Of a stretch of 21,524 nucleotides of DNA, positions 1 to 20,446 are shown piece by piece. The DNA is taken from positions 1 to 21,524 of IMG/VR virus record IMGVR_UViG_2663762839_000009, one strand, 5' to 3'. Positions within the stretch are counted from its first letter, which is position 1; every line of letters starts with the position of its first letter. Both the position numbers and the translations under genes were made by a program. Source of the DNA: a virus. Its lineage: Duplodnaviria; Heunggongvirae; Uroviricota; Caudoviricetes. The notes beneath the pieces were generated by a model. It was not told where the DNA came from. It saw only the letters and a list, made by a program, of their open reading frames with translations, and made no database searches.

Positions 1-564
1 CACATTAATTATATTGAAGTAATGTTTTAAGGTTTGTAATGCCCCTGGAACAGTACTAATTTAAAAAATTTCTGCTGGGCAATAGCACAATTGTCACCCG
101 ATATCACTCTTACATTTTTTGCACTTTCTGTGACCTCGACAACTGGCATTTCTAATCAGCAATTGTATTGGTATTTGGCGTATTACCCCTGAAACCACTC
201 ATGCGCTGGTCCCTCACTATTCAATGATAATCAGCGAAAACCAACCACACCAGTGTCCACTGCAACCACTTGCGCTCAGAGCGACAAACGATTGGCTAAA
301 GAGTCGGCGACAGTCGAGTATCATCGAACCAATAGTGGTTGTTTCCGTCATAATTTCATCAGGTTGCTATTTTGTCGCCAGCTGCCTTTATCCCCTCACA
401 TTTATAGTGGGATTATTTTGCATCGTTACACGATAAAAGGTAGGATTCTGCGCCGACAGTTATACCCATAAAGAATAATGGTGAATCTTGTCATCGCCAG
501 GATGAATAAACATTGTTCATGGCGACATAAAAGACTTTTTTCATTAAAGCAATCAGGGAGCGCA

Positions 565-2064
565 ATGAGTAAACACAACACCGACACTTCAGAGCAACAC
601 GCTGCGAAACGCCGCTGGCTTAATGCCCACGAAGAGGGATATCACAAAGCAATGGGCAATCGTCAGGTGCAGATGATCGCCATTGGCGGTGCGATTGGTA
701 CTGGTTTGTTTTTAGGCGCGGGAGCCCGACTGCAAATGGCGGGGCCGGCGCTGGCACTGGTCTATTTAATCTGCGGCCTGTTTTCGTTTTTTATTCTGCG
801 CGCGTTGGGTGAGCTGGTATTGCATCGCCCTTCCAGTGGCAGCTTTGTCTCCTATGCCCGTGAGTTTCTGGGTGAGAAAGCCGCTTATGTTGCCGGTTGG
901 ATGTACTTCATCAACTGGGCGATGACCGGGATTGTTGATATTACCGCCGTCGCTCTGTATATGCATTACTGGGGTGCGTTTGGCGGCGTGCCGCAGTGGG
1001 TCTTTGCGCTCGCTGCACTTACCATCGTTGGCACCATGAATATGATCGGCGTGAAATGGTTCGCCGAGATGGAGTTCTGGTTTGCGCTTATTAAAGTGCT
1101 CGCCATTGTGACCTTTTTGGTCGTGGGTACGGTGTTCCTCGGTAGTGGTCAGCCGCTGGATGGCAACACCACTGGCTTTCATTTAATCACCGATAATGGC
1201 GGCTTCTTCCCCCACGGTTTGCTGCCTGCGCTGGTGTTGATTCAGGGCGTAGTGTTTGCTTTTGCCTCCATTGAAATGGTGGGTACAGCTGCCGGAGAAT
1301 GTAAAGATCCGCAGACCATGGTGCCTAAAGCGATTAACAGTGTGATTTGGCGTATTGGCCTGTTTTACGTCGGCTCCGTGGTGTTGCTGGTTATGTTATT
1401 GCCGTGGAGCGCGTATCAGGCGGGGCAAAGTCCGTTCGTGACGTTTTTCTCTAAACTGGGTGTGCCATATATCGGCAGCATTATGAACATTGTGGTGCTG
1501 ACCGCTGCCCTCTCCAGCCTGAATTCAGGTCTGTACTGCACCGGACGTATTCTGCGCTCAATGGCGATGGGCGGTTCCGCACCGAGTTTTATGGCGAAAA
1601 TGAGTCGTCAGCATGTGCCGTATGCCGGGATTCTGGCGACACTGGTTGTGTATGTCGTCGGCGTATTCCTCAACTATCTGGTGCCGTCGCGCGTATTTGA
1701 GATTGTGTTGAACTTCGCGTCGCTGGGAATCATCGCTTCATGGGCGTTTATCATCGTGTGCCAGATGCGCCTGCGTAAAGCGATTAAAGAAGGCAAAGCA
1801 GCGGATGTCAGTTTTAAACTGCCTGGCGCGCCCTTCACTTCCTGGCTGACATTACTGTTTTTACTGAGTGTCCTTGTGCTGATGGCGTTCGATTACCCGA
1901 ACGGGACTTATACTATCGCGGCGCTGCCGATTATCGGTATTCTGCTGGTTATAGGCTGGTTTGGTGTGCGCAAACGCGTTGCTGAAATTCACAGCACTGC
2001 GCCCGTAGTCGAAGTAGATAAAGAAAAACAGGATATTGCATTTAAGCCTGAAACGGCGAGTTAA
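565..2064 (+). CDS. ansP: L-asparagine permease (APC-family amino acid transporter)
   Basis: Long ORF 478..2064; the translation from the internal ATG at 565 (MSKHNTDTSEQHAAKRRWLNAHEEGYHKAMGNRQVQMIAIGGAIGTG...) is recognised as AnsP. AGGGAG Shine-Dalgarno about 8 nt upstream of 565. Multi-pass hydrophobic transporter profile. The upstream 29 codons of the ORF are probably not translated. Confidence 0.85.
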   Translation: MSKHNTDTSEQHAAKRRWLNAHEEGYHKAMGNRQVQMIAIGGAIGTGLFLGAGARLQMAGPALALVYLICGLFSFFILRALGELVLHRPSSGSFVSYAREFLGEKAAYVAGWMYFINWAMTGIVDITAVALYMHYWGAFGGVPQWVFALAALTIVGTMNMIGVKWFAEMEFWFALIKVLAIVTFLVVGTVFLGSGQPLDGNTTGFHLITDNGGFFPHGLLPALVLIQGVVFAFASIEMVGTAAGECKDPQTMVPKAINSVIWRIGLFYVGSVVLLVMLLPWSAYQAGQSPFVTFFSKLGVPYIGSIMNIVVLTAALSSLNSGLYCTGRILRSMAMGGSAPSFMAKMSRQHVPYAGILATLVVYVVGVFLNYLVPSRVFEIVLNFASLGIIASWAFIIVCQMRLRKAIKEGKAADVSFKLPGAPFTSWLTLLFLLSVLVLMAFDYPNGTYTIAALPIIGILLVIGWFGVRKRVAEIHSTAPVVEVDKEKQDIAFKPETAS

Positions 2065-2186: not shown

Positions 2187-2655
2187 TTACAGCGCTATAC
2201 GAATCACATCGTCTGGCTGGGTAGCTTCCTGCTGTTTAGTGGATTTTTGTTTCACACTGACATACAGCGTTTTACCATCGGCAGAAAGAGCCAGACTGTT
2301 CGGATGAGTCGGCGTATCGAACGTTTTCACCACTTTATAGCTTTTCGCGTCAATCACACTGACTTTACCTGCCTGACGATGCGTCACGTAGGCTTCATTA
2401 CGCGCGGGGTTAAACAGCACAGCCAGTGATTCCGGTGCCGCAACCTTCGCCAGAATATTGCCATTACGGGTATCGACCACTAACACTTCTGCCGCTTTAG
2501 AATCGGTGATAAATGCACGCTGCCTGGCGGTATCAAGGCTGATGTTGATAAAGAAGTGCTCTTTGCCGTCATCCAGCAGCTTTTTACGACTGAGGATTTT
2601 ATTGTCGGCGGTGTCGATGGTAATCAATTCGCCGTCAGCGTTAGTGGTGTAACTA
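2187..2655 (-). pseudogene. yncE: yncE 3' fragment (PQQ-like beta-propeller protein), 5' part replaced by prophage DNA
   Basis: Minus-strand ORF 2187..2687; from about residue 13 onward (YTTNADGELITIDTADNKILSRKKLLDDGKEHFF...DDVIRIAL) it reads as the C-terminal half of YncE. The first ~12 codons are antisense to a tail-fibre-assembly fragment, so the gene is 5'-truncated at about 2650-2665. Confidence 0.7.
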
Positions 2656-2662
2656 CGCAAGA

Positions 2663-2878
2663 AAACTGGAAGCAATGCGCCAGTCATATCTTAATCAGGC
2701 ATATGAAAAAATTAATGACTGGAGAACGGAGCTACAACTGGGCACCATCAGCGATGAAGACAGAGCAGCACTTACCCAATGGATGGCATACATCAGTCAG
2801 GTGAAGAAAATGGAACTACCCGCCATTAAAACAGAAGCTGAATTTAACGCCATTAAATGGCCTGAGCAGCCACAGTAA
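2663..2878 (+). pseudogene. Tail fibre assembly protein (Tfa/U-type), C-terminal fragment, inverted relative to the tail fibre gene
   Basis: Frame is open from the TAG at 2642-2644; the translation ...SDEDRAALTQWMAYISQVKKMELPAIKTEAEFNAIKWPEQPQ has the typical Tfa C-terminus (acidic-Ala-Leu, W/Y-rich, terminal WPxxP). There is no N-terminal portion; the fragment abuts yncE. Confidence 0.5.
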
Positions 2879-2881
2879 TAA

Positions 2882-2901
2882 AGAAGGCCGGAAGGCCTTC
2901 T
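2882..2901. terminator. Hairpin between convergent tail fibre gene and Tfa fragment
   Basis: AGAAGGCC-ggaa-GGCCTTCT perfect 8-bp stem, 3 nt after the Tfa stop and 8 nt after the tail fibre stop; AT-rich flanks. Confidence 0.5.
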
Positions 2902-2909
2902 GAATATCA

Positions 2910-3791
2910 TTATATACTTGCAGCCGTCACCCATGCTCCATTTAACAGATACTGCAACGGCCGGTAATACACGCCGCCGACGTTATCTGCCGTATTCTTA
3001 CCGACATCCTGTACTTTAATTCCGGTAAGAACATTGCCGCCCCCCAGATTCAGATCCCAGCTTTCCCATGTTCCGGGCATATGTGCGGTCACCGACCCCA
3101 GTCTTATGGCGGTTACTGTTCCTGATGAGATAGTGATATCCTGCGTCCCGTCAAAGGGAACACCATTAATTGTGTGGGCATTTGCCAGCCTGTTCGCGGC
3201 AACGGCGGTGCCGTCCGATGGCAGGGCATTCGCCGCCCTGTTTACCGTTTCCCGTAAACCGACGTTATCGATAAAAGCCCCTTTATCCGGAATGTCTGCG
3301 CCGTTCTGCTCCCTGCGCAGGTAACGGTTATCACCTTCGCTTTTGCTGTAAACATCCAGATTATTACGGGCGGTTCCCTTATTCTCCAGGTCGGCGAGAT
3401 TCTGATCCTTCGCCAGGGCATTAACGTCAGCGGGACCAAGACTGTTTTTTGTGGCAAGCGTCCCCAGACCAAGATAACCACGGGCCAGACGCTGGGCCTC
3501 CGCACCGGCATCAGCAATTTCTTTCAGGTTATTTTTCCGGGAAAAGGCATTCGCAGCGATAATGGCTTTAATGGACAGCGTAAGCTGGTTTAACTGCGCC
3601 TTATCCGGCTGAATACTGGCTTCAGCCAGAATATTCAGCAGTTCGGCCTGGAGAATATTCAGCCAGTCCTGACCAATCCAGCTGATACCTTTTTGTCCGT
3701 CACCTTCGGTAAACCAGGTGGTGGTATTACTCTGCGCCGGTGCCAGCGCAGGCATATTCGCCACGCCGGAATTATTATCAACATGAAACAT
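2910..3791 (-). CDS. Phage tail fibre protein
   Basis: 293-aa ORF. C-terminal region contains a phage tail-fibre repeat-like motif ([20 protein letters not shown]). ATG overlaps the stop of the upstream baseplate-gene fragment (TAATG), as for baseplate/tail-fibre coupling in Mu-like phages. Confidence 0.7.
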
Positions 3792-4276
3792 TAAATAGTC
3801 TCCTCTTCATGGCTGTTTGCATAAACGTAAATAAACGTCTGCCATGCAGGCTTATAACGGTTCAGAATACATTCCAGCGCACCGCCTTCATAAATACGCA
3901 GCGGCGTGAGAATATCATCCAGCACATTCATATTCCGGTAGCCGGTTTCACTGTTAATCGTGACAATACTGACCCACTGCGAATCCGGTGAGGGCTGAAT
4001 GTCAATCTGATAACCAAACTCCGCCGCAAACCGGATATAAAATTCACGGTTCAGCGAGGGCTTCATCCGGTATTTATTTCCGGCATAACGCTGTCGCTCC
4101 GTGAGGGTGGCTCCGGCCATATCACACTCGGGAAGCCCGAGATAACGCTCCCAGTCTTCCAGCAGCAGGCGCGACGTGTCAGGGAAACGCTCGGCAAGCA
4201 GCTGTTTACCCGTCCAGGATAAGCATTCACAATCACATCCAGTTTGTCGGGCTGACGTTTCAGACTGTACGGTGCA
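3791..4276 (-). pseudogene. Mu gp48/YmfQ-like baseplate protein, 5'-truncated
   Basis: Frame is open from the stop at 4277-4279 to 3791 and reads ...LLAERFPDTSRLLLEDWERYLGLPECDMAGATLTERQRYAGNKYRMKPSLNREFYIRFAAEFGY..., but there is no ATG/GTG/TTG before the ATG at 4120, which lies downstream of the conserved LEDWERYLGLP motif. Family assignment is from recalled motif similarity, not a search. Confidence 0.5.
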
Positions 4277-5472
4277 TTAACGGCAATCTGCACACTGCCA
4301 TCCTTATTTTCCACGATATACATCAGATTTTTGTGCCGTTTGTCCCACAGCACCGCTTTTGGCTTTGCCAGCATTGCCGGTAAGCGCCCGAAGTCCTCTG
4401 GCATCAGGGCGATGCCGTCATTCTGATGTTTCACACTGTCTGCATGGAGCACATTTTTACCGCTCATCGCCAGCAGGCGGGCCGGTGGCGTTCCCGTCCG
4501 GCTTTCCACTGCCTGCGCAATGCTTTCAGTCATAAAGCCCAGCGTGCGGATATCGTTACCACCTCGCCGGGTCTGCATGATGTTTTTTGCCCAGATGCGG
4601 AACGCCAGCTGCCGCTCCGGGCTGTTGTTCATCTCCTGAACCACCATTTCCCGTAACGCCGGGCTTTTCACCTCGATCAGTTTGCGGATCAGCGCCTGGT
4701 CTGTGCCGAACGCTGCCGAGCCGGGGTTATATGACCAGCCCACATCCGGTGTCATGGTTCTGGTGCCATCTGAATATGTGGTCACCGGCATTTCTCTGAC
4801 TTCTCCGGTCTGTTTATCCACGCCAGCCTCAACATTGCGGGTGGAGAGATGATCCTCACCGGATGAAACGGATAACCCCATTGCATCCAGACGAGCCTGA
4901 GACAATGGCCGCACACGGCAGCGGCAGTTCCAGCCATTAGGTGGGTAGTGTGTTTTCCAGAACGGATCGTCATAGCGGAATACCAGACCGTTAAGGGCGG
5001 AATGCGACGGGCGGGTACGGCTGTCCATGACCGCCACATACTGCCAGAACGGATGCGTGTCCGTGTTGTTCATCATCTGCGTGTAACGCCCGGCATTGTA
5101 AGCCACCCGGGTGTTCACGTTGTAAATCAGCGCCAGACGACGGGGACTGCCCAGTTGCACTTCTTCCGCGTTACCGTCGCTGTCCACCACAATCTGCTTT
5201 CCCCACCATCCCAGCTTTTGCAGGCGTGGCGTCAGCGTGCGGATAAATGCTTTCTGTGAAATTCCCTCATCAATGGCCCGCTGCACTTCGGCCTGTAACG
5301 TGGTCACCACATCCAGGCGTGCCGCTTTTGCTGCCGTGAATGAGCGGGCATGAACATCCGCGGCTGTTTCGAACCAGTTCCAGCTGATATGCGCCCCTTT
5401 GACACGGAAGTATGCTACCGCCTCTTTTGAGGGAAGCGTGGCGGCATAACCTAAATCAATCCCCTGTGTCAT
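4063..5472 (-). CDS. Mu F (gp30)-like head morphogenesis protein; last ~50 codons read out of frame through the baseplate-gene fragment
   Basis: 469-aa ORF. Contains the Mu F / SPP1 gp7-type motif (...VAVMDSRTRPSHSALNGLVFRYDDPFWKTHYPPNGWNCRCRVRPL...). After ...KLDVIVNAYPG the translation becomes low-complexity (RVNSCLPSVSLTRRACCWKTGSVISGFP...) while the other frame encodes the baseplate protein. Confidence 0.8.
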   Translation of the reverse strand: MTQGIDLGYAATLPSKEAVAYFRVKGAHISWNWFETAADVHARSFTAAKAARLDVVTTLQAEVQRAIDEGISQKAFIRTLTPRLQKLGWWGKQIVVDSDGNAEEVQLGSPRRLALIYNVNTRVAYNAGRYTQMMNNTDTHPFWQYVAVMDSRTRPSHSALNGLVFRYDDPFWKTHYPPNGWNCRCRVRPLSQARLDAMGLSVSSGEDHLSTRNVEAGVDKQTGEVREMPVTTYSDGTRTMTPDVGWSYNPGSAAFGTDQALIRKLIEVKSPALREMVVQEMNNSPERQLAFRIWAKNIMQTRRGGNDIRTLGFMTESIAQAVESRTGTPPARLLAMSGKNVLHADSVKHQNDGIALMPEDFGRLPAMLAKPKAVLWDKRHKNLMYIVENKDGSVQIAVNAPYSLKRQPDKLDVIVNAYPGRVNSCLPSVSLTRRACCWKTGSVISGFPSVIWPEPPSRSDSVMPEINTG

Positions 5473-7045
5473 CCAGCATCCCCTTCATTTCCGCAGCAAA
5501 CATGGCATCACTGAGCAGCGTCATCAGGCGGGAATCATCCATTTCACGATAAAGGGCAGGCAGGTCTGCCAGCGCATCCGCCAGCCCCCGCGTTCTGATG
5601 GCATCAATGACCGGCTCCAGTACCGGGTCGATGGCCTCCTGTAAGCGGCGGGCAGGCACCGCGTCCCCCATATCATCCAGTTCATCACGCGGCGTGCTTT
5701 TCGCTTCCGGCAGTCTGGCTGACAGCGCCGTCTGCTCTGTTTTTTCCTGTTTTTCCGGTGGTGTTTCCCTGTCGGTCTGAGCCGGTTCATTGCCACTCTG
5801 ACGGACACGGAATATGGCTTCACCGGGCGTGGGCTGCGGAATACCGGTCTGCTCACGTATCCAGGGATCAGAAATATCCATCCCCGTACTGAGCTGCATC
5901 ACCGCACTGGTGATTTTGGTGATATCACCTGGTTCTTTTGTCTGGAAGCAGATACGTGGCAGACGGCGGATATCAATAGTGTGCGTGGTGTTCAGGGCGT
6001 ACAGCGGATACACCAGATCGCGGTTCAGGGTTGCAGCCAGCTGTCGTAAATCAGAATCCCTGATTTCCCGGCGCACCTCGTTATGTACCTCACCCAGTGA
6101 GCGCGCGCCTTTGTCTCCGGCTTCCGTGGTCAGCGTGCCGCCGAGTATTGCTTTGGAGATGGAACGCTCCCCCCACGAAATCATGGTTTCAAACGGATCG
6201 GCCTGACCGTTCGCTGCCGCCTGAAACTCCAGCGACATCCCGGCCGGGATGATCCCGCCTGTACGTCGCCCGATATCCATCACCGCCCGCATCAGGGCAC
6301 TTTTCTGCTCCGGTGTTGCCCCGGACGGGTATTTCCCGACCTTCATCGGCAGGCCGTACACCTCCAGAAATTCCGCCAGATCGCGCACGGAATAGTTTTT
6401 GAAAATGAACGGCCAGATAAGCGTCCGGACAAGCCCGGTTGCACCACCGTAACCGGTGCGTGAACGCGACTGATGCACTATCCAGCCAAAGGGCTGAAAC
6501 GCCACCCCGGAATGGCTGCCGTCACGCAGCCGCAGTTCGCTCAAATCATCCGGGTTAAGGCAGAAATGCCCGCTGTCACGCCAGCGGATGGCGCGGATGA
6601 TGTGCATTTTACCGAGCATCCCGTGCTCAATTTCCATGCAGGAATAGCCCTTCAGGATGGCATCCGTGGCGTCAAACAGCATGGCATCAAACCAGTCTGC
6701 GGAATGCAGATATTCGTCGAGCATTTCCGCGTCCTTTTTCTCATTCGCGCTGGCGTTCGGTGGCGGCTCAATACTCCATGGCCCCCCCTGAATGGCAAGA
6801 CGTCGCTTGCCCAGCTCCGCAAAAAGGTGGGTGTCCTTTTCTTCAATATCAGCGGCCAGATCGGACTGGGCAATCAGATCGCCACGTTCAGCCCCGCGAA
6901 GGCACTGCGCCGCCCGGTTCGGGGTGATACCCGAAGCCGGATGTTCAATATAACGGCTGGCAATCTGCGGAATATCCAGCGCGGCACTCTGCATCTCCGG
7001 GTCAAAGGAGAAAGGTTTTCCGTCAGTATCAATGATGCGTCCCAC
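5456..7045 (-). CDS. Portal protein (Mu gp29-like)
   Basis: 529-aa ORF directly downstream of and overlapping the large terminase gene by 1 nt, followed by the F-like gene: the conserved terminase-portal-F order of Mu-like phages. Confidence 0.8.
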   Translation of the reverse strand: MGRIIDTDGKPFSFDPEMQSAALDIPQIASRYIEHPASGITPNRAAQCLRGAERGDLIAQSDLAADIEEKDTHLFAELGKRRLAIQGGPWSIEPPPNASANEKKDAEMLDEYLHSADWFDAMLFDATDAILKGYSCMEIEHGMLGKMHIIRAIRWRDSGHFCLNPDDLSELRLRDGSHSGVAFQPFGWIVHQSRSRTGYGGATGLVRTLIWPFIFKNYSVRDLAEFLEVYGLPMKVGKYPSGATPEQKSALMRAVMDIGRRTGGIIPAGMSLEFQAAANGQADPFETMISWGERSISKAILGGTLTTEAGDKGARSLGEVHNEVRREIRDSDLRQLAATLNRDLVYPLYALNTTHTIDIRRLPRICFQTKEPGDITKITSAVMQLSTGMDISDPWIREQTGIPQPTPGEAIFRVRQSGNEPAQTDRETPPEKQEKTEQTALSARLPEAKSTPRDELDDMGDAVPARRLQEAIDPVLEPVIDAIRTRGLADALADLPALYREMDDSRLMTLLSDAMFAAEMKGMLDDTGD

Positions 7046-8709
7046 TACCAGCCCCCCCGATCAAATTCATGATATGCCTCATCGTCATCACGATAACCGC
7101 CCTCCATTGCCCGCGACCGCTCCGGTAGCGCCTGACAGGCTGATTCATCCAGGATGAAGCCCTCCATGTATGACGCCCGGTTTGCCATACAGAGCGCCAC
7201 GGCAAAATCACCATGGCGGCGGGCGTTCGCAGCCGTTGCGTTCTGGTCCTTCGTGCGCCCCTTGTCGATTTGCGGGATACCATTCACTACCTTCACATGG
7301 CGCAAATCATCAAGCGTGGTCTGATGGCGGGCGACGAGGATATTCTGATCTTCAAACTCGGCTTTCAGTTTTGGCATCCACTCGCCGTACCACTTCGGCG
7401 ACAACATCACGCAGTCGATGATGTCCGGGCCAAAGGCCAGCAGTGCGGCCTCTGCCAGATAGCCGCCGTTACCGGTGGCGTCGAACGCCGCACCGACCAG
7501 CGCCGGAACGCGGGTCAGGATGTACATCATCACCTGTTCCTGCTGGGCATACGGCAGGTTGCGCAGCTCCACGCGAAACACCTCGCGCTTTGCCAGGGAT
7601 TCGGTGATTTCCAGCAGCACAAAGCAGGACAGGTCACCGGTGCGGGCAAAGTCTTCCCCGAAGCTGAAGCGGGAACGGGGATTTAATTTCTCTAAAAGCG
7701 GTTTTAAATGTTCTTCACACCAGGTTAAAACTTCCGATTCACGCAGCCATGCGGCACGGCTGATGAAGTTGTCCGGGGCTTCAAACGTCAGAATCGGGAT
7801 GTCGCGGATCATCGCCATTTCAATAAGCGCGTGGGGGATATAGGCACCGCCGGATTTTTTCGGGATACAGCCGTATTCCTCGTCGGCATCCTCACGGGTC
7901 GGGGCATTTTTGTAGAGATCATCACGCCATTTCTGCTCGCTTTCCGGTGACCATTCCTGATCGGTGACGTAACAGATACGACGGTACAGCCCGTCCGCAA
8001 TGGCATCATCCAGGGTTATGCGGTGGACGCTGTAATCCTTGCGCCCCTCGCGGGCTTCCTGAATGTACTGATTAAACAGATTATCGACGCCGTTATGCGT
8101 GGAGATAATACGCACGCGCGCGCCCCACATAGTGAGCGCCATTGCCGCCTTGAGAAGTTCATCCAGCGACTCGTGGAACGCGGCTTCATCAATCACCACA
8201 TCCCCCTGAAGGCCGCGCAGGTTTGACGGACGGGAAGACAATGCCTGAATTTTGAATCCACTGTACGGAAAGCGGATCATGTAGGTCAAAATTTCTTCTT
8301 TTTTATCCCGTTCCCAGAATGTCTGCTCATACACATCAGCATCTGCCAGCTGGTTAAAGGCACGGGAGAACAGCGCGCAGGCAGAAATATATTCCAGCGC
8401 CATCTCCTGCTTTGATCCCACATAAAACACATTGCGGCCACCACGACGCTTCGGTTTTGCAGCAGTAATGACGTTACGCCCGGCTTCCGCCCAGGTAAGA
8501 CCGGTGCGGCGGGATTTTTCCGCAATGCAGACCTGACTTTCATCCTCAAACCAGCGGGCCTGATAATCCAGAAACACCGGCATATCACCGGGCAAATCAA
8601 GTCTGTCCGGCACATCCACGCCCAGCAGGGCTTTTTCACCGGACAGATCAATTTTGCGGGGAGGCGTCATTTGTATCAGTGAAGGAGACGTTTCTTTGGC
8701 TTTGTTCAT
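7045..8709 (-). CDS. Terminase large subunit (Mu gp28-like)
   Basis: 554-aa ORF with an ATPase-like N-terminal part and nuclease-like C-terminal part; sits between the gp27-like gene and the portal gene. Confidence 0.8.
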   Translation of the reverse strand: MNKAKETSPSLIQMTPPRKIDLSGEKALLGVDVPDRLDLPGDMPVFLDYQARWFEDESQVCIAEKSRRTGLTWAEAGRNVITAAKPKRRGGRNVFYVGSKQEMALEYISACALFSRAFNQLADADVYEQTFWERDKKEEILTYMIRFPYSGFKIQALSSRPSNLRGLQGDVVIDEAAFHESLDELLKAAMALTMWGARVRIISTHNGVDNLFNQYIQEAREGRKDYSVHRITLDDAIADGLYRRICYVTDQEWSPESEQKWRDDLYKNAPTREDADEEYGCIPKKSGGAYIPHALIEMAMIRDIPILTFEAPDNFISRAAWLRESEVLTWCEEHLKPLLEKLNPRSRFSFGEDFARTGDLSCFVLLEITESLAKREVFRVELRNLPYAQQEQVMMYILTRVPALVGAAFDATGNGGYLAEAALLAFGPDIIDCVMLSPKWYGEWMPKLKAEFEDQNILVARHQTTLDDLRHVKVVNGIPQIDKGRTKDQNATAANARRHGDFAVALCMANRASYMEGFILDESACQALPERSRAMEGGYRDDDEAYHEFDRGGW

Positions 8710-8957
8710 CAGGCTTTACCTGTCAGAATGCTTTTGATTCGGAACTCAAGCTCTTCAGTCATCACGTCCACGCCACTCAACTCATCAGTGACAGCCTCTG
8801 CCAGCAGCGAATGCAGTTGTTCCAGGGATATTTCCCCGGCAATGCTGAGTTCAGTCAACTCACGACACGCTTTTATGGTTTCAGGAGGTAACTGTGTTGC
8901 AAGACTGAATGCCTTCTGATGAGCACTACTCATCAGTGAGCGGTTATCTGTTACCAC
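8709..8957 (-). CDS. Small protein (82 aa) whose C-terminus copies the C-terminal tail of the adjacent gp27-like protein
   Basis: GTG start at 8957 preceded by AGGAGGTG. C-terminus ...LLAEAVTDELSGVDVMTEELEFRIKSILTGKA parallels ...EEMANAVTDELRGVDGMSEQIEFRIRQMLLGKA of ORF 8968..9549. Stop overlaps the terminase start. Confidence 0.5.
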   Translation of the reverse strand: MVTDNRSLMSSAHQKAFSLATQLPPETIKACRELTELSIAGEISLEQLHSLLAEAVTDELSGVDVMTEELEFRIKSILTGKA

Positions 8958-8967
8958 GATTCACCTC

Positions 8968-9549
8968 CTACGCCTTACCAAGCAGCATCTGCCTGATACG
9001 GAATTCTATCTGCTCGCTCATGCCATCCACGCCGCGCAACTCGTCGGTGACGGCGTTCGCCATCTCTTCAGCAAATGCGGCCCGGATTTCTTTTTCACGC
9101 TTAATGCTGCGCTCGGCGGCACTTTCCGCACGCTGTGCCGACAGGAGGATGTCCTTAATAAGGCGCATATCCACATCGCTGTCGCTGTTCAGGGATTCGG
9201 TGGCAGCACGCAGACGGCGGTACATCAGGGCGCGGGACATTTCCAGAATCAGTGCCGTGGTTTCACCGGTCGGCTTGTCCCCCAGTTCGGCCATCATGGC
9301 TTTTGTCTGCTCGCGTAAATCACGCAGGTTACGGGCAATCAGCTCATTACGGGAGGCCTCCCGGCTGATGGCCGCCGGTGAAAGCTGCTGCTCTTCCGGC
9401 AGACCCGCCTCACGGATCAGGCGGTTGATTTCCTCGCGGATCTGGACCTGCGTCAGGCGTTTTTCACGCAGCATTTCCAGCAGCGGCTTACGGATGCTGT
9501 CGGGGAGCAAATCCACCTTGCGTACACGGCCACGCGTTGGCTTATCCAT
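8968..9549 (-). CDS. Mu gp27-like protein (putative small terminase/packaging subunit)
   Basis: 193-aa ORF, basic N-terminus (MDKPTRGRVRKVDLLPDSIRKPLLEMLREKRL...) with a helical, charged body; position immediately upstream of the large terminase. Confidence 0.7.
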   Translation of the reverse strand: MDKPTRGRVRKVDLLPDSIRKPLLEMLREKRLTQVQIREEINRLIREAGLPEEQQLSPAAISREASRNELIARNLRDLREQTKAMMAELGDKPTGETTALILEMSRALMYRRLRAATESLNSDSDVDMRLIKDILLSAQRAESAAERSIKREKEIRAAFAEEMANAVTDELRGVDGMSEQIEFRIRQMLLGKA

Positions 9550-9551
9550 CG

Positions 9552-9842
9552 TTACCCCCTTGCGCGTGGTTTCTTCACACCCGGAACAGTGGCACGACCT
9601 TCCGCCACATCCTGACCCCGGCCGGTCAGTTCAGCGATGAAATAACCGTTAACAAGCGTGCGCTTACGCACCAGTCCCTGCTCGGCAAGCCAGGCAATGT
9701 GGGTGTGAACGGTGTCGCGGGACACACGGTGGCCGTAATCATCCAGGCAGTCCTGAAGCACGGATTCGCCCAGTTCGCCGTTGTAATCCGCCAGCGACCG
9801 CAGAATGACAAGACGCTGATCTTCAGTAATGAAATCACTCAT
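9552..9842 (-). CDS. Mu gp26-like small protein (winged-helix-like)
   Basis: 96-aa ORF tightly coupled between the membrane protein and the gp27-like gene. Confidence 0.55.
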   Translation of the reverse strand: MSDFITEDQRLVILRSLADYNGELGESVLQDCLDDYGHRVSRDTVHTHIAWLAEQGLVRKRTLVNGYFIAELTGRGQDVAEGRATVPGVKKPRARG

Positions 9843-10737: not shown

Positions 10738-11068
10738 TCGTGGCCGCCTTGCTGATTTGTGAAATGAGTTGCAGGGTGCGTTGCTGGTTTGCCAGCACCA
10801 GACGGGCTTCGTCCCGTTCACGCACAAGCACATGATTATTGTCCTCAAGGCGCTGCGTCTTCTGGTGCATTCCCCATACCACGGCAGCCAGCACGCTCAT
10901 CACCCCCAGCGCCGCCATACAGCCTCCGGCAATCAGGGCCGGTAAGGGATTGTTCACCGCAGCCACAGCACACCCCGCAGCAGCACAACGGCACACAGCA
11001 GCGCAATCATGAGCGGTCGCCAGAAGCGGTTCAGACTTTCGGCAAATCGTAACGACATAACCATTCAT
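10568..11068 (-). CDS. Inner-membrane spanin candidate (Rz-like)
   Basis: Hydrophobic segment (MAALGVMSVLAAVVWGM) followed by a charged coiled-coil-like region (HQKTQRLEDNNHVLVRERDEARLVLANQQRTLQ...); immediately downstream of the lysozyme gene. Start uncertain (ATG at 11068 or 10918). Confidence 0.55.
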   Translation of the reverse strand: MNGYVVTICRKSEPLLATAHDCAAVCRCAAAGCAVAAVNNPLPALIAGGCMAALGVMSVLAAVVWGMHQKTQRLEDNNHVLVRERDEARLVLANQQRTLQLISQISKAATNEKQQNMQHSEEQQSIVRRSLATVPAASVPVPDDVADRVRRAVCEIRAGEAGADPR

Positions 11069-11531
11069 CCGCCGAACGGCGGGCCTCAAGACCGGGGAGT
11101 TTTACCCCCTTTGAATAAATCCAGCGGATATACTGCTTACAGGACGCGGGCATCTGCCCGGCATTGATAAGGCACAGGAGCGTGGAGTTGCGAAAGTTCG
11201 TTTCACCGGCCCAGAAAATCCAGGAGGCCAGCGCCACCGTCTGACCACGGGTAAGCGGCACCTGAACATGACGATCGATAGCCGCAAAGGCCCATTTCAT
11301 GTCCTTTTCCAGCAGCTCCAGACACTCTTCATCAGTTTTTGTCATCCCCGGTTTCACATCCGGGCCGGTATGGCCGTAACAGATGGTGGGGGTGCCGGTG
11401 GGATCAATGTACGTGGTGTTTTCTTTCCCTTCCCAGTAGCCGGTGTAGTGCGTGGCAATGGTGAACGTCCCGGCTCCGGCCAGAACAAGGGCAATCAGCT
11501 TTTTACGCAGGGGTGCGGGGAGTTTTGGCAT
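11031..11531 (-). CDS. Phage lysozyme (T4-lysozyme/GH24-type) with N-terminal signal-anchor-release (SAR)-like segment
   Basis: YWEGKENTTYIDPTGTPTICYGHTG catalytic-region motif. N-terminal Gly/Ala-rich weakly hydrophobic stretch (LIALVLAGAGTFTIATHY) typical of SAR endolysins. Confidence 0.85.
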   Translation of the reverse strand: MPKLPAPLRKKLIALVLAGAGTFTIATHYTGYWEGKENTTYIDPTGTPTICYGHTGPDVKPGMTKTDEECLELLEKDMKWAFAAIDRHVQVPLTRGQTVALASWIFWAGETNFRNSTLLCLINAGQMPASCKQYIRWIYSKGVKLPGLEARRSADEWLCRYDLPKV

Positions 11532-12672: not shown

Positions 12673-13083
12673 ATGAAAATAGATTACGATGAAGTATTAA
12701 GTATTCTCACAACTTTTCAGGATGCTGAAACACCTTTCCTTACACTACAGGATCTGGGCATGGCTGAGGCAGAAGGAGAGGAAAAGGATAAAAAAGTTTT
12801 TCATCTTATGCTTCTCGCTGATAATGGCTCAATTGTTAATGGTGATATGCAGTCAGAAACACCCAAATATATTGGTTTCTTTTTCCATTCTCTGGGCGTT
12901 GGTTTCAGAAACACGCCCATTATGCTTACCCAGCAGGGGCATGATTTAGCTAACGCCCTGAGAAAAAAACCAATCCTTGAAAGAATCAAAAAGGAGTTTA
13001 CAGACGCACCATTTGATCTAATTAAAGAAGTTACCAAATCAATGTTAACCAGGTTCGTCAAAGAACGTATTGGGATTGACTGA
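12673..13083 (+). CDS. Hypothetical protein, opposite-strand AT-rich accessory gene
   Basis: 136-aa ORF on the plus strand inside an otherwise minus-strand operon; AAAGG Shine-Dalgarno 7 nt upstream; visibly AT-rich codon usage; own hairpin plus T-run downstream; 3' end overlaps the convergent gene 13045..13353 by about 39 nt. Confidence 0.6.
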   Translation: MKIDYDEVLSILTTFQDAETPFLTLQDLGMAEAEGEEKDKKVFHLMLLADNGSIVNGDMQSETPKYIGFFFHSLGVGFRNTPIMLTQQGHDLANALRKKPILERIKKEFTDAPFDLIKEVTKSMLTRFVKERIGID

Positions 13084-18688: not shown

Positions 18689-20446
18689 TCAGGCCAGCGG
18701 ATCACTTTCTTTTAATTTCGCTTCGAGCAGTTGCAATCCCCGCTGGAAATTACGCTCGTATTCTTCATCAGGTTCATCGTCAGCGACCGGTTGCTGAACG
18801 GTCACCGTATTACCCACAGGGCGGTATATGTTTTCCAGCCAGGGCTCCTGCGGCTTGTGCTCCAGCACGTTGACAACCTCATCCTCGACATCACGGATTT
18901 TTTCCTCTGCGCGTTTACGCATGCCTTTAAGGCGCTGCTGCTGTTTGTAGTATTCCGCGCTGACAGGGAAGGCTTCGCGTTTATTGCCGTCCCATACCGC
19001 CTCGCAAATCACGCTGCCATCCGGGCGGCGCACGGTAATTCGTTCGGCATCATGAATGTCATAGCTGATAAGTACCTTACGGCCATGCTCGTCACGCAGC
19101 TCGGGCGCGTAGTAAATATTATTCAGCCAGCGTATTTCACAGCGTCTTACAGGGCGCTCCACCATCGGCCGGAACATATCCCGCAGTTCAACATCGGACA
19201 GCCATTCAATTTCCGTGTCCTCTTCCGCCAGGCGTTTTTTTCTGAACTCCGCCGGGCTGTAATGTTTACCGTTCGGCTTCATGGGTAATTCATCGTGCGG
19301 CCGGTTGTTGTACCACTCAACACCGTCACGAATGGCATCAATCAGTTCAGACCAGGACGGTAAATCACGCATCGCTGACTGCTGCCGGGCGTTCAGCCGT
19401 TTGCCCTGTTGCAGGGCACTGAATGCCGAGCGTAAATCGCGGTTGGTTTTACGTAACGTCTCGCGATCTGCTCCTTTCCCGAAATAGGTGCGGTATTTAC
19501 GGGCTATGCGCATCGGTAATGTGCGGTTAAGCCGTTCGATAATGCCCCGTCCCTGCGGATTACCGGCAATCCCTGTCGGGTGATTAATCCCCAGTCGTGG
19601 CAGTACCCGGCCTTTTTGTTTCACCACTTCCGGCAGTTTCTTCATTGCGCGGCGAATGGTGTCATAAGAGGGCATGATATCGAGCATATAAGGCTCATCA
19701 GCGTGCCGGTGCTGCCATTCAGCAACAAAATCCTCGTAAGCCTCGGTCATTGGTCGGCCGTTTGACTGGCGATACTGCGCCAGAAATTCGGGCAGCCAGT
19801 TAATATCTTCGGCTTTTATTTCCTGGCGTTTACCCGGTGCCAGTAAAAGCAGGCGTTCAGCGGCGTTCTGTGCCTTGTTAAAGGCCGCAATCCAGCGTTT
19901 CAGCGTGATTTCACTCAACGCGCGGCTGTTTCCCTTTTTGGCGTTCGCCGTCTCAACCATTGCCACAATGCGCTCGTCCAGTTGTGATCGTGCCAGGCTG
20001 TTAACGAGGAACCGGATAGCCTTAGCGCAACTAAAGCCGGGTTGTTGCGCGATTTTCAGCACCTCGCTGACGATCGCTATTCGTGCCTCTGCCACTTTAC
20101 GTTGGTTTTCAGTCAGGGCATTGAGGCGTTCGACCATCAGTTGGGGTGATCCGCGATATGCCTCCACCGCATCAACCACGGCAGGTGAGCGTCTGGCCTT
20201 TGTCACCACCGGAGCCGGTGATTCATCGGCTTTTTGCGTCATCAGTTGCAGGGCGTAGCGTTCACGTAATGCCTGCTGCGTCACTTCAGGTAAACAGTCG
20301 ATGCTGTATTCAGTTGCTTTAGAGCCTGAGCGACGACGGGAACAACAGCTTTTCCCTTGTACGTAACGTTGTAATGCCTGGCGAATACCTTTTGTTGTAG
20401 CAGGCATTCCGGGCGCGCCAATCAGTTCTTTTGCAATGACATACAT
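18689..20446 (-). CDS. MuA-like transposase
   Basis: 585-aa ORF following ner. Contains integrase-core-like motifs (...GNPQGRGIIERLNRTL... and ...WYNNRPHDELPMKP...) and a C-terminal region resembling the MuA C-terminal domain (...RPDGSVICEAVWDG...IYRPVGNTV...DDEPDEEYERN...). Confidence 0.8.
   Translation of the reverse strand: MYVIAKELIGAPGMPATTKGIRQALQRYVQGKSCCSRRRSGSKATEYSIDCLPEVTQQALRERYALQLMTQKADESPAPVVTKARRSPAVVDAVEAYRGSPQLMVERLNALTENQRKVAEARIAIVSEVLKIAQQPGFSCAKAIRFLVNSLARSQLDERIVAMVETANAKKGNSRALSEITLKRWIAAFNKAQNAAERLLLLAPGKRQEIKAEDINWLPEFLAQYRQSNGRPMTEAYEDFVAEWQHRHADEPYMLDIMPSYDTIRRAMKKLPEVVKQKGRVLPRLGINHPTGIAGNPQGRGIIERLNRTLPMRIARKYRTYFGKGADRETLRKTNRDLRSAFSALQQGKRLNARQQSAMRDLPSWSELIDAIRDGVEWYNNRPHDELPMKPNGKHYSPAEFRKKRLAEEDTEIEWLSDVELRDMFRPMVERPVRRCEIRWLNNIYYAPELRDEHGRKVLISYDIHDAERITVRRPDGSVICEAVWDGNKREAFPVSAEYYKQQQRLKGMRKRAEEKIRDVEDEVVNVLEHKPQEPWLENIYRPVGNTVTVQQPVADDEPDEEYERNFQRGLQLLEAKLKESDPLA

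What the first reader, a model, noticed from the sequence alone, without database searches (positions are those of the whole stretch)
8709..8957. Extra small gene carrying a diverged copy of the gp27-like C-terminal tail, wedged in front of the large terminase
The 82-aa ORF has a strong AGGAGGTG ribosome-binding site and a GTG start. Its last ~30 residues (AVTDELSGVDVMTEELEFRIKSILTGKA) parallel the C-terminus of the upstream gp27-like putative small-terminase subunit (AVTDELRGVDGMSEQIEFRIRQMLLGKA), and its stop overlaps the terminase start codon. The nucleotide sequences are clearly diverged rather than identical, so this is not a recent tandem duplication. It could be a recombination scar between two Mu-like phages. 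It could also be a functional mini-protein that shares the terminase-contacting tail and modulates or redirects packaging, as satellite-encoded small-terminase mimics do.
Basis: seen in the sequence. Interest (0 to 1): 0.55.

Follow-up and report, generated by a model that had tools for sequence, protein, structure and literature searches.

The report
Chimeric small gene before Mu-like terminase
The 82-codon gene is real and does end in a diverged copy of the small-terminase tail, but it is most likely a recombination product: a small accessory gene of Mu-like phages joined in frame to the tail of another phage's small-terminase gene, with no sign that the copied tail is still under selection.

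Summary
ORF82 (8709-8957, minus strand) has an AGGAGGTG ribosome-binding site and a GTG start. Its stop overlaps the large-terminase ATG. Its last 31 residues match the gp27 C-terminus (20/31 identical, E=1e-12).

It is not a local duplication. The tail DNA is closer to the gp27 tail of relatives that lack the ORF (78%) than to the neighbouring gp27 tail (66%).

Residues 1-54 belong to a small protein family I call X. X sits directly after gp27 in a minority of E. coli, Salmonella and Mu-type phages, and elsewhere it has no tail. X is homologous to an N-terminal segment of the MuF/gp30 head protein (hhalign probability 91%).

In Salmonella, X is paired with a convergent, overlapping 166-aa reverse-strand gene (R166). 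That layout matches anti-Tab/Tab in Pseudomonas Mu-like phages. The window has no R gene.

About 25 of about 230 related E. coli prophages carry ORF82. The rest lack exactly 259 bp.

Polymorphism is near neutral in ORF82 (N=24, S=13) but strongly constrained in gp27 (N=1, S=44).

Best reading: an in-frame recombination scar that is translated and tolerated. A packaging-modulator role is not excluded but has no support. Interest is moderate.

The parts
8968..9549 (-). gp27-family small terminase subunit (193 aa)
   Evidence: PF11985 E=3e-33 and phrog_426 'terminase small subunit' E=9e-55. The protein is identical in nearly all ORF82-carrying prophages.
8968..9063 (-). C-terminal tail of gp27 (aa 163-193, MANAVTDELRGVDGMSEQIEFRIRQMLLGKA) plus stop
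   Evidence: The first 48 nt are 90% identical to cassette-less relatives and the last 48 nt only 67%, so the left boundary of the acquired cassette lies inside this tail. Polymorphism among 11 haplotypes is S=10, N=0.
8962..8969 (-). Shine-Dalgarno AGGAGGTG for ORF82, overlapping the gp27 stop codon
   Evidence: Read directly from the sequence. The same TAGGAGGTGAATC(A/G)TG junction precedes the X gene in L011 and in all ORF82 loci.
8796..8957 (-). ORF82 residues 1-54: the X domain, predicted as a three-helix unit and homologous to an N-terminal segment of MuF
   Evidence: Homologous to tail-less X proteins: P0012/X67 (HMMER E=1e-10), Salmonella X69 (E=1e-7), X65 (E=1.4e-4) and the unannotated Tongde X58. 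hhalign of the X family against MuF N-termini gives probability 91.4%, E=9e-7. AF2 predicts helices 4-22, 25-39 and 45-60 with block-mean pLDDT of 69-87 over residues 1-50, falling to 67 over 51-60.
8709..8804 (-). ORF82 residues 52-82 plus stop: a diverged copy of a gp27 C-terminal tail
   Evidence: BLASTP E=1e-12 against gp27 aa 163-193. DNA is 78% identical to the tail of single-gene E. coli relatives and 66% to the adjacent gp27 tail. Fixed changes occur at gp27-invariant positions (R->S, DGMS->DVMT, LLGKA->LTGKA). Polymorphism is S=4, N=5.
7045..8709 (-). Large terminase (554 aa); its ATG overlaps the ORF82 stop (TGATG)
   Evidence: phrog_2 E=2e-43. The same GGTAAAGCCTGATG junction links gp27 directly to TerL in relatives without ORF82. 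The first ~22 residues of TerL are hypervariable between otherwise near-identical phages.
5239..5382 (-). Segment of the window's own MuF/gp30 gene (aa 31-78) that is homologous to the X domain
   Evidence: BLASTP of X69 against window MuF: aa 2-57 to aa 28-87, E=2e-5. hhalign aligns X 3-50 to MuF 31-78. X58, X69 and X65 hit phrog_220 'minor head protein' in the same register.
8916..8936 (.). 8-bp inverted repeat CTGATGAG-n5-CTCATCAG inside codons 8-14 of ORF82
   Evidence: Read from the sequence. Hairpins occur at a similar place in X genes of L007, L011 and Salmonella but are weak in L003 and Tongde. Folding z-scores are unremarkable, -0.4 to -1.9. Its significance is unknown.

Best explanation

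Its first ~54 residues are a member of a small protein family (X). X normally stands alone (58-87 aa) directly after gp27 in a minority of enterobacterial Mu-like phages. It is a paralogue of the N-terminal helical segment of the MuF/gp30 head protein.

Its last ~30 residues are the C-terminal tail of a gp27 gene from a different, cassette-less phage lineage.

Inferred origin: recombination between a cassette-bearing phage (gp27 - X - reverse-strand R gene - TerL) and a cassette-less phage (gp27 - TerL). The left crossover lay within the gp27 tail. The right crossover was an illegitimate or microhomology join (LAEA|VTDEL) between the 3' end of X and the start of the recipient's gp27 tail. This removed the R gene and the native C-terminus of X.

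Only an in-frame join lets ribosomes read through to the native TGATG stop/start overlap with TerL. That may explain why the ORF stays open.

The product is probably made from the late transcript, because the ribosome-binding site is strong. The copied tail is drifting and probably contributes little or nothing to packaging. Any residual activity more likely lies in the X part.

Shown: the chimeric composition, the distribution and the contrast in constraint. Inferred: the order of events, translation, and lack of function.
For: Composition:
- The tail is homologous to gp27 (E=1e-12; profile E=6e-8).
- The N-terminal part is homologous to tail-less X proteins at the same locus in L011, Tongde and Salmonella.
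- X is homologous to the MuF N-terminus.

Origin:
- The tail DNA is 78% identical to the single-gene E. coli gp27 tail against 66% to its own neighbour. The neighbouring gp27 tail switches from 90% to 67% identity halfway along.
- L011 shares the identical gp27 tail, ribosome-binding site and start of X, but continues into a native X C-terminus, a degraded R remnant, and a TerL with a different N-terminus.
- About 205 of about 230 related E. coli prophages lack exactly 259 bp.
- Salmonella and Mu homologues show the canonical single tail, so the single-gene state is ancestral.

Relaxed constraint:
- ORF82 has S=13, N=24 (ratio 0.58, p=0.085 against neutrality), while gp27 in the same loci has S=44, N=1.
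- The tails alone are 4/5 against 10/0. Pairwise dN/dS is 0.2-0.6 against 0-0.18 for the neighbours.
- Substitutions are fixed at positions invariant in 120 gp27 tails.

Tolerance:
- ORF82 sits in a full-length, unflagged prophage in FORC_069, at a different insertion site from the window copy.
- The exact protein is on at least 1000 contigs in E. coli, Shigella and E. albertii.
Against: - All eight distinct full-length haplotypes, and every locus read, keep the 82-codon frame, the ribosome-binding site and the TGATG overlap. One locus (L039) has an in-frame 2-codon deletion. A purely neutral scar might be expected to show some frameshifts.
- Polymorphism is slightly below neutral expectation (ratio 0.45-0.58).
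- TerL is translated without an overlapping upstream ORF in L011, Tongde and Salmonella. Coupling is therefore not obligatory in this phage group, which weakens the 'kept open for coupling' argument.
- The exact donor of the tail was not found. The best match is only 78%.
- No expression or binding data exist.
Confidence: 0.55

Rival explanations
1. Orphan antidote. The X part of ORF82 is still functional. By analogy with anti-Tab, it would neutralise a prophage-encoded R166-like factor, perhaps by mimicking the MuF N-terminus. Keeping X without R would let the phage grow on hosts that carry R-encoding prophages. On this view the gp27 tail is a passenger.
For: - In Salmonella, intact X69 and intact R166 form a convergent, ~150-nt overlapping pair between gp27 and TerL. 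This is the layout of atab/tab in JBD26.
- In that system anti-Tab alone protects a phage that lacks Tab (PMC10884400).
- X occurs alone, coupled to TerL, in other Salmonella prophages (X65).
- X family members keep the MuF-like motif across 25-57% identity.
Against: - X/R166 have no sequence similarity to anti-Tab/Tab. R166 has no hit in Pfam, PADLOC or PHROGs.
- No promoter-like site for R was found in the region scanned.
- The X part of ORF82 is itself close to neutral (S=9, N=19).
- R-like DNA was not found in complete E. coli genomes, so a target in E. coli is not evident.
Confidence: 0.2
2. Packaging modulator. ORF82 uses the copied tail to bind the TerL N-terminus. It would compete with gp27 or tether the MuF-like X domain to the motor, thereby tuning or redirecting packaging.
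For: - In lambda and P22 the TerS C-terminus binds the N-terminal ~23 residues of TerL (PMC9611059).
- The tail keeps most family-conserved residues and the same predicted helix-break-helix shape as gp27.
- The ORF has a strong ribosome-binding site and sits immediately upstream of TerL.
- The frame is intact in all haplotypes read.
Against: - The tail shows no purifying selection (N=5, S=4), whereas the gp27 tail is frozen (N=0, S=10).
- Four positions that are invariant or nearly invariant in gp27 tails are replaced.
- No other X protein has a statistically supported tail.
- About 90% of close relatives do without the ORF.
- Nothing is known experimentally about which part of Mu gp27 contacts TerL.
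Confidence: 0.12
3. Local tandem duplication of the 3' end of the resident gp27 gene, followed by divergence.
For: There are two tail copies 259 bp apart on the same strand.
Against: - The intervening 160 nt are homologous to an independent gene family (X), not to gp27.
- The ORF82 tail is closer to a different gp27 allele than to the resident one.
- The resident gp27 tail is itself the imported one, because it is shared with L011.
Confidence: 0.03
4. Untranslated pseudo-ORF: the open frame is incidental and no protein is made.
For: Evolution is near neutral. The family has no known function (phrog_30922).
Against: - The AGGAGGTG ribosome-binding site with a 4-nt spacer is conserved, with ATG or GTG starts, in all copies.
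- The ORF lies inside the late operon between two essential genes.
- X homologues are conserved as proteins across genera.
Confidence: 0.1

Closest known systems
anti-Tab / Tab accessory locus of Pseudomonas Mu-like phages (JBD26 gp30/gp31; PMC10884400)
   Same: [quoted passage not shown]
- A small (~80 aa) gene lies directly after TerS on the late strand.
- In the Salmonella relatives of X, a convergent reverse-strand partner overlaps its 3' end.
   Different: - No detectable sequence similarity.
- The window has no reverse-strand partner.
- ORF82 carries a TerS tail, which anti-Tab does not.
- No functional data exist for X or R166.
C-terminal TerL-binding region of small terminases (lambda gpNu1, P22 gp3; review PMC9611059), and Mu gp27/D
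   Same: The last ~30 residues of ORF82 are homologous to the C-terminus of the gp27 family. This is the segment expected by analogy to contact TerL, and it lies next to a TerL whose N-terminus is hypervariable.
   Different: ORF82 lacks the rest of gp27: no N-terminal DNA-binding or oligomerisation part and no PF11985 hit. Its tail is not conserved like real gp27 tails. TerL binding by the Mu gp27 tail has not itself been demonstrated.
MuF / Mu gp30 / SPP1 gp7 minor head protein family (PF04233; PMC5576092)
   Same: The X domain aligns to MuF residues ~31-78, covering the AH.aF.VA ... eG.t...F motif region (hhalign probability 91%).
   Different: X covers only ~50 residues at and before the start of the Pfam domain. 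It has no significant Pfam hit of its own and is encoded at a different locus. What this MuF segment does is unknown. SPP1 gp7 as a whole binds the portal.
Satellite-encoded terminase hijackers (SaPI TerS, PICI Rpp; PMC6739421)
   Same: Conceptually these are small proteins that interfere with terminase subunit pairing.
   Different: ORF82 is phage-encoded, inside the phage's own late operon. It has no DNA-binding domain, and there is no evidence for a satellite or for redirected packaging. Sequence relationship was not tested.
phrog_30922 / WP_000255658-type 'hypothetical protein [Enterobacteriaceae]'
   Same: ORF82 is a full-length member (E=1e-55). The exact protein is on at least 1000 contigs.
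   Different: The family carries no annotation. Its chimeric make-up (X plus gp27 tail) is not recorded in any annotation I saw.

Membership tests
Phage_Mu_Gp27 small terminase (PF11985 / phrog_426) | Full-length match to the family profile (~173 positions, including the N-terminal part) | tested here: not met
   ORF82 has no Pfam hit at E<=10. Only residues 52-82 align to gp27. The neighbouring 193-aa gene meets it (E=3e-33).
Phage_Mu_Gp27 small terminase (PF11985 / phrog_426) | Conserved C-terminal tail motif DELRG.DGMSE.LE..I...L.GKA | tested here: inconclusive
   20/31 residues are identical, but R->S, G->V, S->T and L->T occur at positions that are invariant or nearly invariant in 120 homologues.
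phrog_30922 (unknown function) | Full-length profile match | tested here: met
   E=1.1e-55 over positions 1-82 of 82.
X family (provisional: small ORF directly downstream of gp27 in Mu-like phages) | N-terminal motif (D/N).(R/W)..L..SAH.KAF and position within ~10 nt after the gp27 stop, on the same strand | tested here: met
   Pairwise E values are 1e-19 to X67, 1e-7 to X69, 1e-4 to X65 and 7e-4 to X58. The position is the same in L011, L027, L048, L051, L055 and Tongde.
MuF / Phage_Mu_F (PF04233) | Significant match to the MuF domain profile | tested here: not met
   No Pfam hit for ORF82; X58 scores only E=0.15 to profile positions 2-26. Homology is limited to a ~48-residue N-terminal segment (hhalign probability 91.4%).
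Tab / anti-Tab system | Sequence homology to JBD26 gp30 (anti-Tab) or gp31 (Tab) | tested here: not met
   The best BLASTP E is 0.7 over 13 residues.
Tab / anti-Tab system | Gene pair between TerS and TerL: late-strand gene directly after TerS plus a convergent reverse-strand gene | tested here: not met
   The window has only the late-strand gene, and no R remnant was found. The layout is met in the Salmonella relatives L054-L056.
Tab / anti-Tab system | Reverse-strand gene blocks virion assembly of incoming phages; the late gene binds and neutralises it | not testable with these tools
   This needs plaque assays and interaction assays.
Satellite terminase mimics (SaPI TerS, PICI Rpp) | Encoded by a satellite element; binds the helper TerS or TerL and changes pac/cos specificity | not tested
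   ORF82 is inside a Mu-like prophage late operon. No sequence comparison with Rpp or SaPI TerS was run.

The most novel reading that the evidence does not exclude
Enterobacterial Mu-like phages may carry, in the TerS|TerL slot, a two-gene conflict module analogous to Tab/anti-Tab. R166 would be a prophage-expressed factor that attacks head assembly through MuF or its partner. X would be a late-expressed MuF-N-terminus mimic that acts as decoy or antidote. ORF82 would then be an orphan antidote that has captured a TerL-docking tail, which would place the decoy at the packaging motor. That would be a naturally occurring fusion of two assembly-protein interaction modules.
Probability: 0.12. Interest if true: 0.7.

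Novelty: new variant of a known kind. Interest (0 to 1): 0.4.

Why it matters
If the best explanation holds, ORF82 is a clear example of how phage mosaicism creates new in-frame chimeric ORFs at a recombination hot spot, the TerS 3' end / TerL 5' end. It also shows that such ORFs can spread widely (at least 1000 contigs in E. coli and Shigella) without evident selection on the protein. Annotators should not read the shared tail as evidence of a second terminase subunit.

The by-products are of more interest. The TerS|TerL slot of enterobacterial Mu-like phages holds a previously undescribed small-gene family (X) derived from the MuF N-terminus. In Salmonella it also holds a convergent partner gene (R166) in the same layout as the Tab/anti-Tab defence module of Pseudomonas phages. 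That gives a directly testable candidate for a second assembly-targeting defence/anti-defence pair, and a handle on what the MuF N-terminus binds.

Tried and rejected
- Pfam, PADLOC and PDB sequence searches of ORF82 gave nothing.
- HMMER over 1.84 billion representatives with an ORF82 profile found only near-identical proteins plus P0012. A third hit, P0013, is a repeat protein matching about 20 residues and was judged spurious.
- Foldseek of the AF2 model against BFVD found no match at E<=0.001.
- The gp27 AF2 model has low confidence (pLDDT 51). I used it only for secondary-structure pattern.
- Two scans of GTDB species representatives for X found nothing. The metagenome scan and the IMG/VR scan with the X alignment only re-found ORF82; the IMG/VR scan with X69 alone found nothing.
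- The IMG/VR hit to R72 (L031) is spurious, with no phage genes around it.
- Anti-Tab/Tab homology was rejected.
- A possible second tail remnant at the end of Salmonella X87 (..AEGLRGAE..VGKTS) is not statistically supported: no BLASTP hit at E<=1.
- Truncated 49-aa database entries (P0008, P0009) could not be traced to DNA. They may reflect alternative start calls rather than disruption.
- No promoter-like sites were found around ORF82 or upstream of R in Salmonella.
- Rfam found no family in the window.
- The hairpin in the 5' part of X has unremarkable z-scores.
- R-like and L011-type cassette DNA is essentially absent from complete E. coli genomes, and R166 is absent from deposited phage genomes.
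I worked round this through their gp27 neighbours.
Full report
**Context.** The window is a Mu-like prophage of E. coli with its genes on the minus strand. The order is lysozyme (11031-11531), spanin/TraR/DUF2730 genes, a gp26-like winged-helix gene (9552-9842), gp27 (8968-9549; PF11985 E=3e-33, phrog_426 'terminase small subunit'), the 82-codon ORF (8709-8957), the large terminase (7045-8709), the portal (5456-7045) and MuF (4063-5472). The junction region is 100% identical to E. coli JE86-ST05, and about 230 of 5,426 complete E. coli genomes carry related prophages.

**Checking the observation.**
- AGGAGGTG lies at 8962-8969 and overlaps the gp27 TAG stop. A 4-nt spacer follows, then a GTG start at 8955-8957. 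Several relatives have ATG.
- The ORF82 TGA shares one base with the TerL ATG (TGATG).
- ORF82 residues 52-82 align without gaps to gp27 residues 163-193: 20/31 identical, 26/31 similar, E=1e-12 for the pair.
- As an independent test, the gp27 tail hits the PHROG profile of the ORF82 family (phrog_30922, positions 51-82) at E=6e-8.
- At DNA level the two 96-nt tails are 66% identical.

**Distribution.** A 276-nt probe covering the ORF finds it in 25 complete E. coli genomes: 19 at 99% identity or more, 4 at 95-99%, one at 93% and one at 87%. The other ~184 matching genomes align only over the tail. Relatives without it lack exactly 259 bp, and there gp27 runs directly into TerL through the same GGTAAAGCCTGATG junction. 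The exact 82-aa protein is on at least 1000 contigs and is annotated as a hypothetical protein in E. coli, Shigella flexneri, S. sonnei, S. dysenteriae and E. albertii. It is catalogued as phrog_30922, function unknown.

**ORF82 is a chimera.**
- An HMMER search of 1.84 billion representatives with an ORF82 profile found one informative relative, P0012 (67 aa, E=1e-10). It matches only ORF82 residues 1-56.
- P0012 is encoded at the same place in a 31-kb Mu-like contig (L011). That contig has an identical gp27 protein with the identical tail IEFRIRQMLLGKA and the same TAGGAGGTGAATCATG junction. It then has a 67-aa ORF with its own C-terminus, a 120-nt gap, and a TerL whose first ~22 residues differ.
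- Yersinia phage Tongde (genus Muvirus) has a 417-nt insertion at the same junction. It contains an unannotated 58-aa ORF (MKNNYRAQLISAHKKAF...) homologous to the ORF82 N-terminus, plus a second small gene.
- Salmonella Mu-like prophages have further members directly after gp27: X69, X65 and X87.
- I call this family X. Pairwise E-values to ORF82 are 1e-19 (X67), 1e-7 (X69), 1.4e-4 (X65) and 7e-4 (X58).
- None of these has a statistically supported gp27 tail. ORF82 is therefore X (residues 1 to about 54) joined to a gp27 tail.

**X is related to MuF.**
- X69 aligns to residues 28-87 of the window's own MuF protein (E=2e-5).
- X58, X69 and X65 all hit phrog_220 'minor head protein' at profile positions ~916-970.
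- X58 weakly hits the first 25 positions of PF04233, in the same register.
- A profile-profile comparison of five X sequences with ten MuF N-termini from diverse Mu-like phages gives probability 91.4% and E=9e-7, aligning X 3-50 to MuF 31-78.
- An HMM of MuF N-termini scores X58, X69 and X65 at 2e-8, 3e-8 and 6e-6.
- The function of this MuF segment is unknown. The SPP1 homologue gp7 binds the portal (PMC5576092).
- AF2 predicts ORF82 as three helices (4-22, 25-39, 45-60), a low-confidence break at residues 60-64 with no helix from 61 to 67, and a terminal helix (68-79), with mean pLDDT 73. The poor gp27 model shows the same helix-break-helix ending.

**Origin of the tail.**
- The ORF82 tail DNA is 76-78% identical to the gp27 tail of single-gene E. 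coli relatives, but only 64-66% identical to the gp27 tail next to it.
- The resident gp27 tail is 90% identical to single-gene relatives over its first 48 nt and 67% over its last 48 nt. The left edge of the imported block therefore lies inside the gp27 tail.
- Flanking genes are 93-100% identical among all these phages. The stretch from about 8580 to 8980, which includes the first ~70 nt of TerL, is a mosaic hot spot.
- Salmonella and Mu homologues have one canonical tail (AVTDELRG.DGMSE.LE.RI...LLGKA), so the single-gene state is ancestral.
- The simplest history is recombination between a cassette-bearing phage and a cassette-less one. The right-hand join falls at LAEA|VTDEL, where the end of X (LVAHAQ in X67) and gp27 (MANAV) are similar. 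This history is an inference.

**Constraint.**
- Thirteen loci gave 8 distinct ORF82 haplotypes. All are 82 codons, with the ribosome-binding site and TGATG preserved, and they encode 8 different proteins. The 11 gp27 haplotypes encode 2 proteins.
- Counting polymorphic codons gives ORF82 S=13, N=24 (ratio 0.58, p=0.085 against neutrality) and gp27 S=44, N=1. For the tails alone the figures are ORF82 S=4, N=5 and gp27 S=10, N=0.
- Pairwise dN/dS is 0.2-0.6 for ORF82 and 0-0.18 for gp26, gp27 and TerL.
- Part of the ORF82 diversity is itself recombinational. In L007 the first ~100 nt are 77% identical to the window and the rest is 99% identical.
- The ORF82 tail has fixed replacements at positions that are invariant or nearly invariant in 120 gp27 homologues: R->S, DGMS->DVMT, LLGKA->LTGKA.
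- The copied tail is therefore not behaving like a functional TerS tail.
- The open frame, with no frameshift in any locus read and one in-frame 2-codon deletion in L039, is weak evidence for some constraint. That constraint could be translational coupling to TerL. However, TerL is not coupled in L011, Tongde or the Salmonella X/R phages.

**The slot is an accessory locus.**
- In Pseudomonas Mu-like phages the TerS|TerL gap holds anti-Tab and Tab. Anti-Tab lies on the late strand directly after TerS. Tab lies on the reverse strand with its own promoter and blocks tail assembly of incoming phages (PMC10884400).
- In Salmonella prophages L054-L056, an intact X69 ORF (3093-3302) and an intact 166-aa reverse-strand gene (R166, 3148-3648) are convergent and overlap by ~150 nt between gp27 and TerL.
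- L027 has the same pair with R frameshifted.
- L011 retains a degraded remnant of R residues 93-165 (E=2e-7).
- The window, L007 and Tongde have no R remnant.
- R166 has no hit in Pfam, PADLOC or PHROGs. X and R have no similarity to anti-Tab or Tab. No sigma-70-like promoter was found in the region scanned.
- The resemblance to Tab/anti-Tab is therefore architectural only.

**Viability context.**
- The window's own prophage is defective. A 13.8-kb deletion joins MuF to a gp48-like fragment at 4219|4220, removing head and tail genes. A 329-bp deletion interrupts the transposase near 19605.
- ORF82 also occurs in a full-length prophage with no pseudogene flags in FORC_069. That prophage is inserted in elfC, whereas the window copy abuts a yncE fragment.
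- Different insertion sites suggest that ORF82-carrying phages have been active.

**Verdict.** TerS C-termini do bind TerL N-termini in lambda and P22 (PMC9611059). I rate the feature a new variant of a known kind, an accessory small gene in the TerS|TerL slot of transposable phages, of moderate interest. The more promising lead is the X/R166 module and the link between X and MuF.

Noticed in passing
window 4219|4220 (MuF ORF 4063-5472 running into the gp48-like fragment 3791-4120): The prophage in the window is defective. Compared with the full-length FORC_069 prophage, 13.8 kb are missing, from the MuF C-terminus, gpG, protease and major head through the tail and baseplate genes up to gp48.
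   Followed up: partly
window ~19605-19608 (transposase ORF 18689-20446): A 329-bp internal deletion relative to FORC_069 shortens the MuA-like ORF to 585 aa, against 696 aa annotated in relatives.
   Followed up: partly
window 478-2064 (+) and 2187-2687 (-): Host flank: an amino-acid permease (PF00324, E=2.5e-137) and a YncE-like beta-propeller fragment. This copy appears to abut or interrupt yncE. The FORC_069 copy interrupts the elfC usher gene.
   Followed up: no
L055 3093-3302 (+) and 3148-3648 (-); also L054, L056, L027: Salmonella Mu-like prophages carry X69 and a 166-aa reverse-strand gene (R166) as a convergent pair overlapping by ~150 nt between gp27 and TerL. The gene callers report only R166. 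R166 has no hit in Pfam, PADLOC or PHROGs. The layout matches anti-Tab/Tab.
   Followed up: partly
L005 (Yersinia phage vB_YpM_Tongde) ~2937-3113 (-) and 2732-2926 (-): There is an unannotated 58-aa X-family ORF directly after gp27, followed by an annotated 64-aa gene (phrog_21398). The second gene's cluster is widespread in E. coli, E. albertii, Salmonella and Yersinia enterocolitica.
   Followed up: partly
window 8640-8709 (TerL residues 1-22) and the equivalent in L001, L011, L027, L028 and Mu: The first ~22 residues of TerL are hypervariable between phages whose TerL is otherwise 93-100% identical at DNA level. The last ~13 residues of gp27 are variable in the same way. This could reflect co-varying contact surfaces or simply a recombination hot spot.
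   Followed up: partly
window 8916-8936; L011 ~4016-4038; L007 and L027 at the equivalent codons: Inverted repeats of 7-10 bp lie within codons ~7-14 of several X genes, with different sequences and slightly different registers. In L011 the scan scores the repeat as terminator-like on the reverse strand. Folding z-scores are unremarkable.
   Followed up: partly
L047 15361-15440 and L046 4798-4877: RefSeq annotates a 'tRNA-OTHER' between MuF and the gpG-like gene in full-length relatives. The region is deleted in the window.
   Followed up: no
window 12673-13083 (+): A DUF2513 gene lies on the opposite strand within the early/middle region. It is present in JE86-ST05, but FORC_069 has different genes at that position, so this is another variable slot.
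   Followed up: no
P0015 (291 aa, on a 34-kb Logan contig): A gp26-gp27 fusion ORF occurs in one assembly. It is presumably a frameshift or an assembly error at the 2-nt gap between the two genes.
   Followed up: no
L048 3093-3356: Salmonella X87 begins like X (MQQKYDWYEF) and ends ...AEGLRGAELYLFVRYFVGKTS, overlapping the TerL start. This faintly resembles a degraded gp27 tail (ELRG ... GK). BLASTP gives no hit, so it remains only a hint of a second, older fusion.
   Followed up: partly
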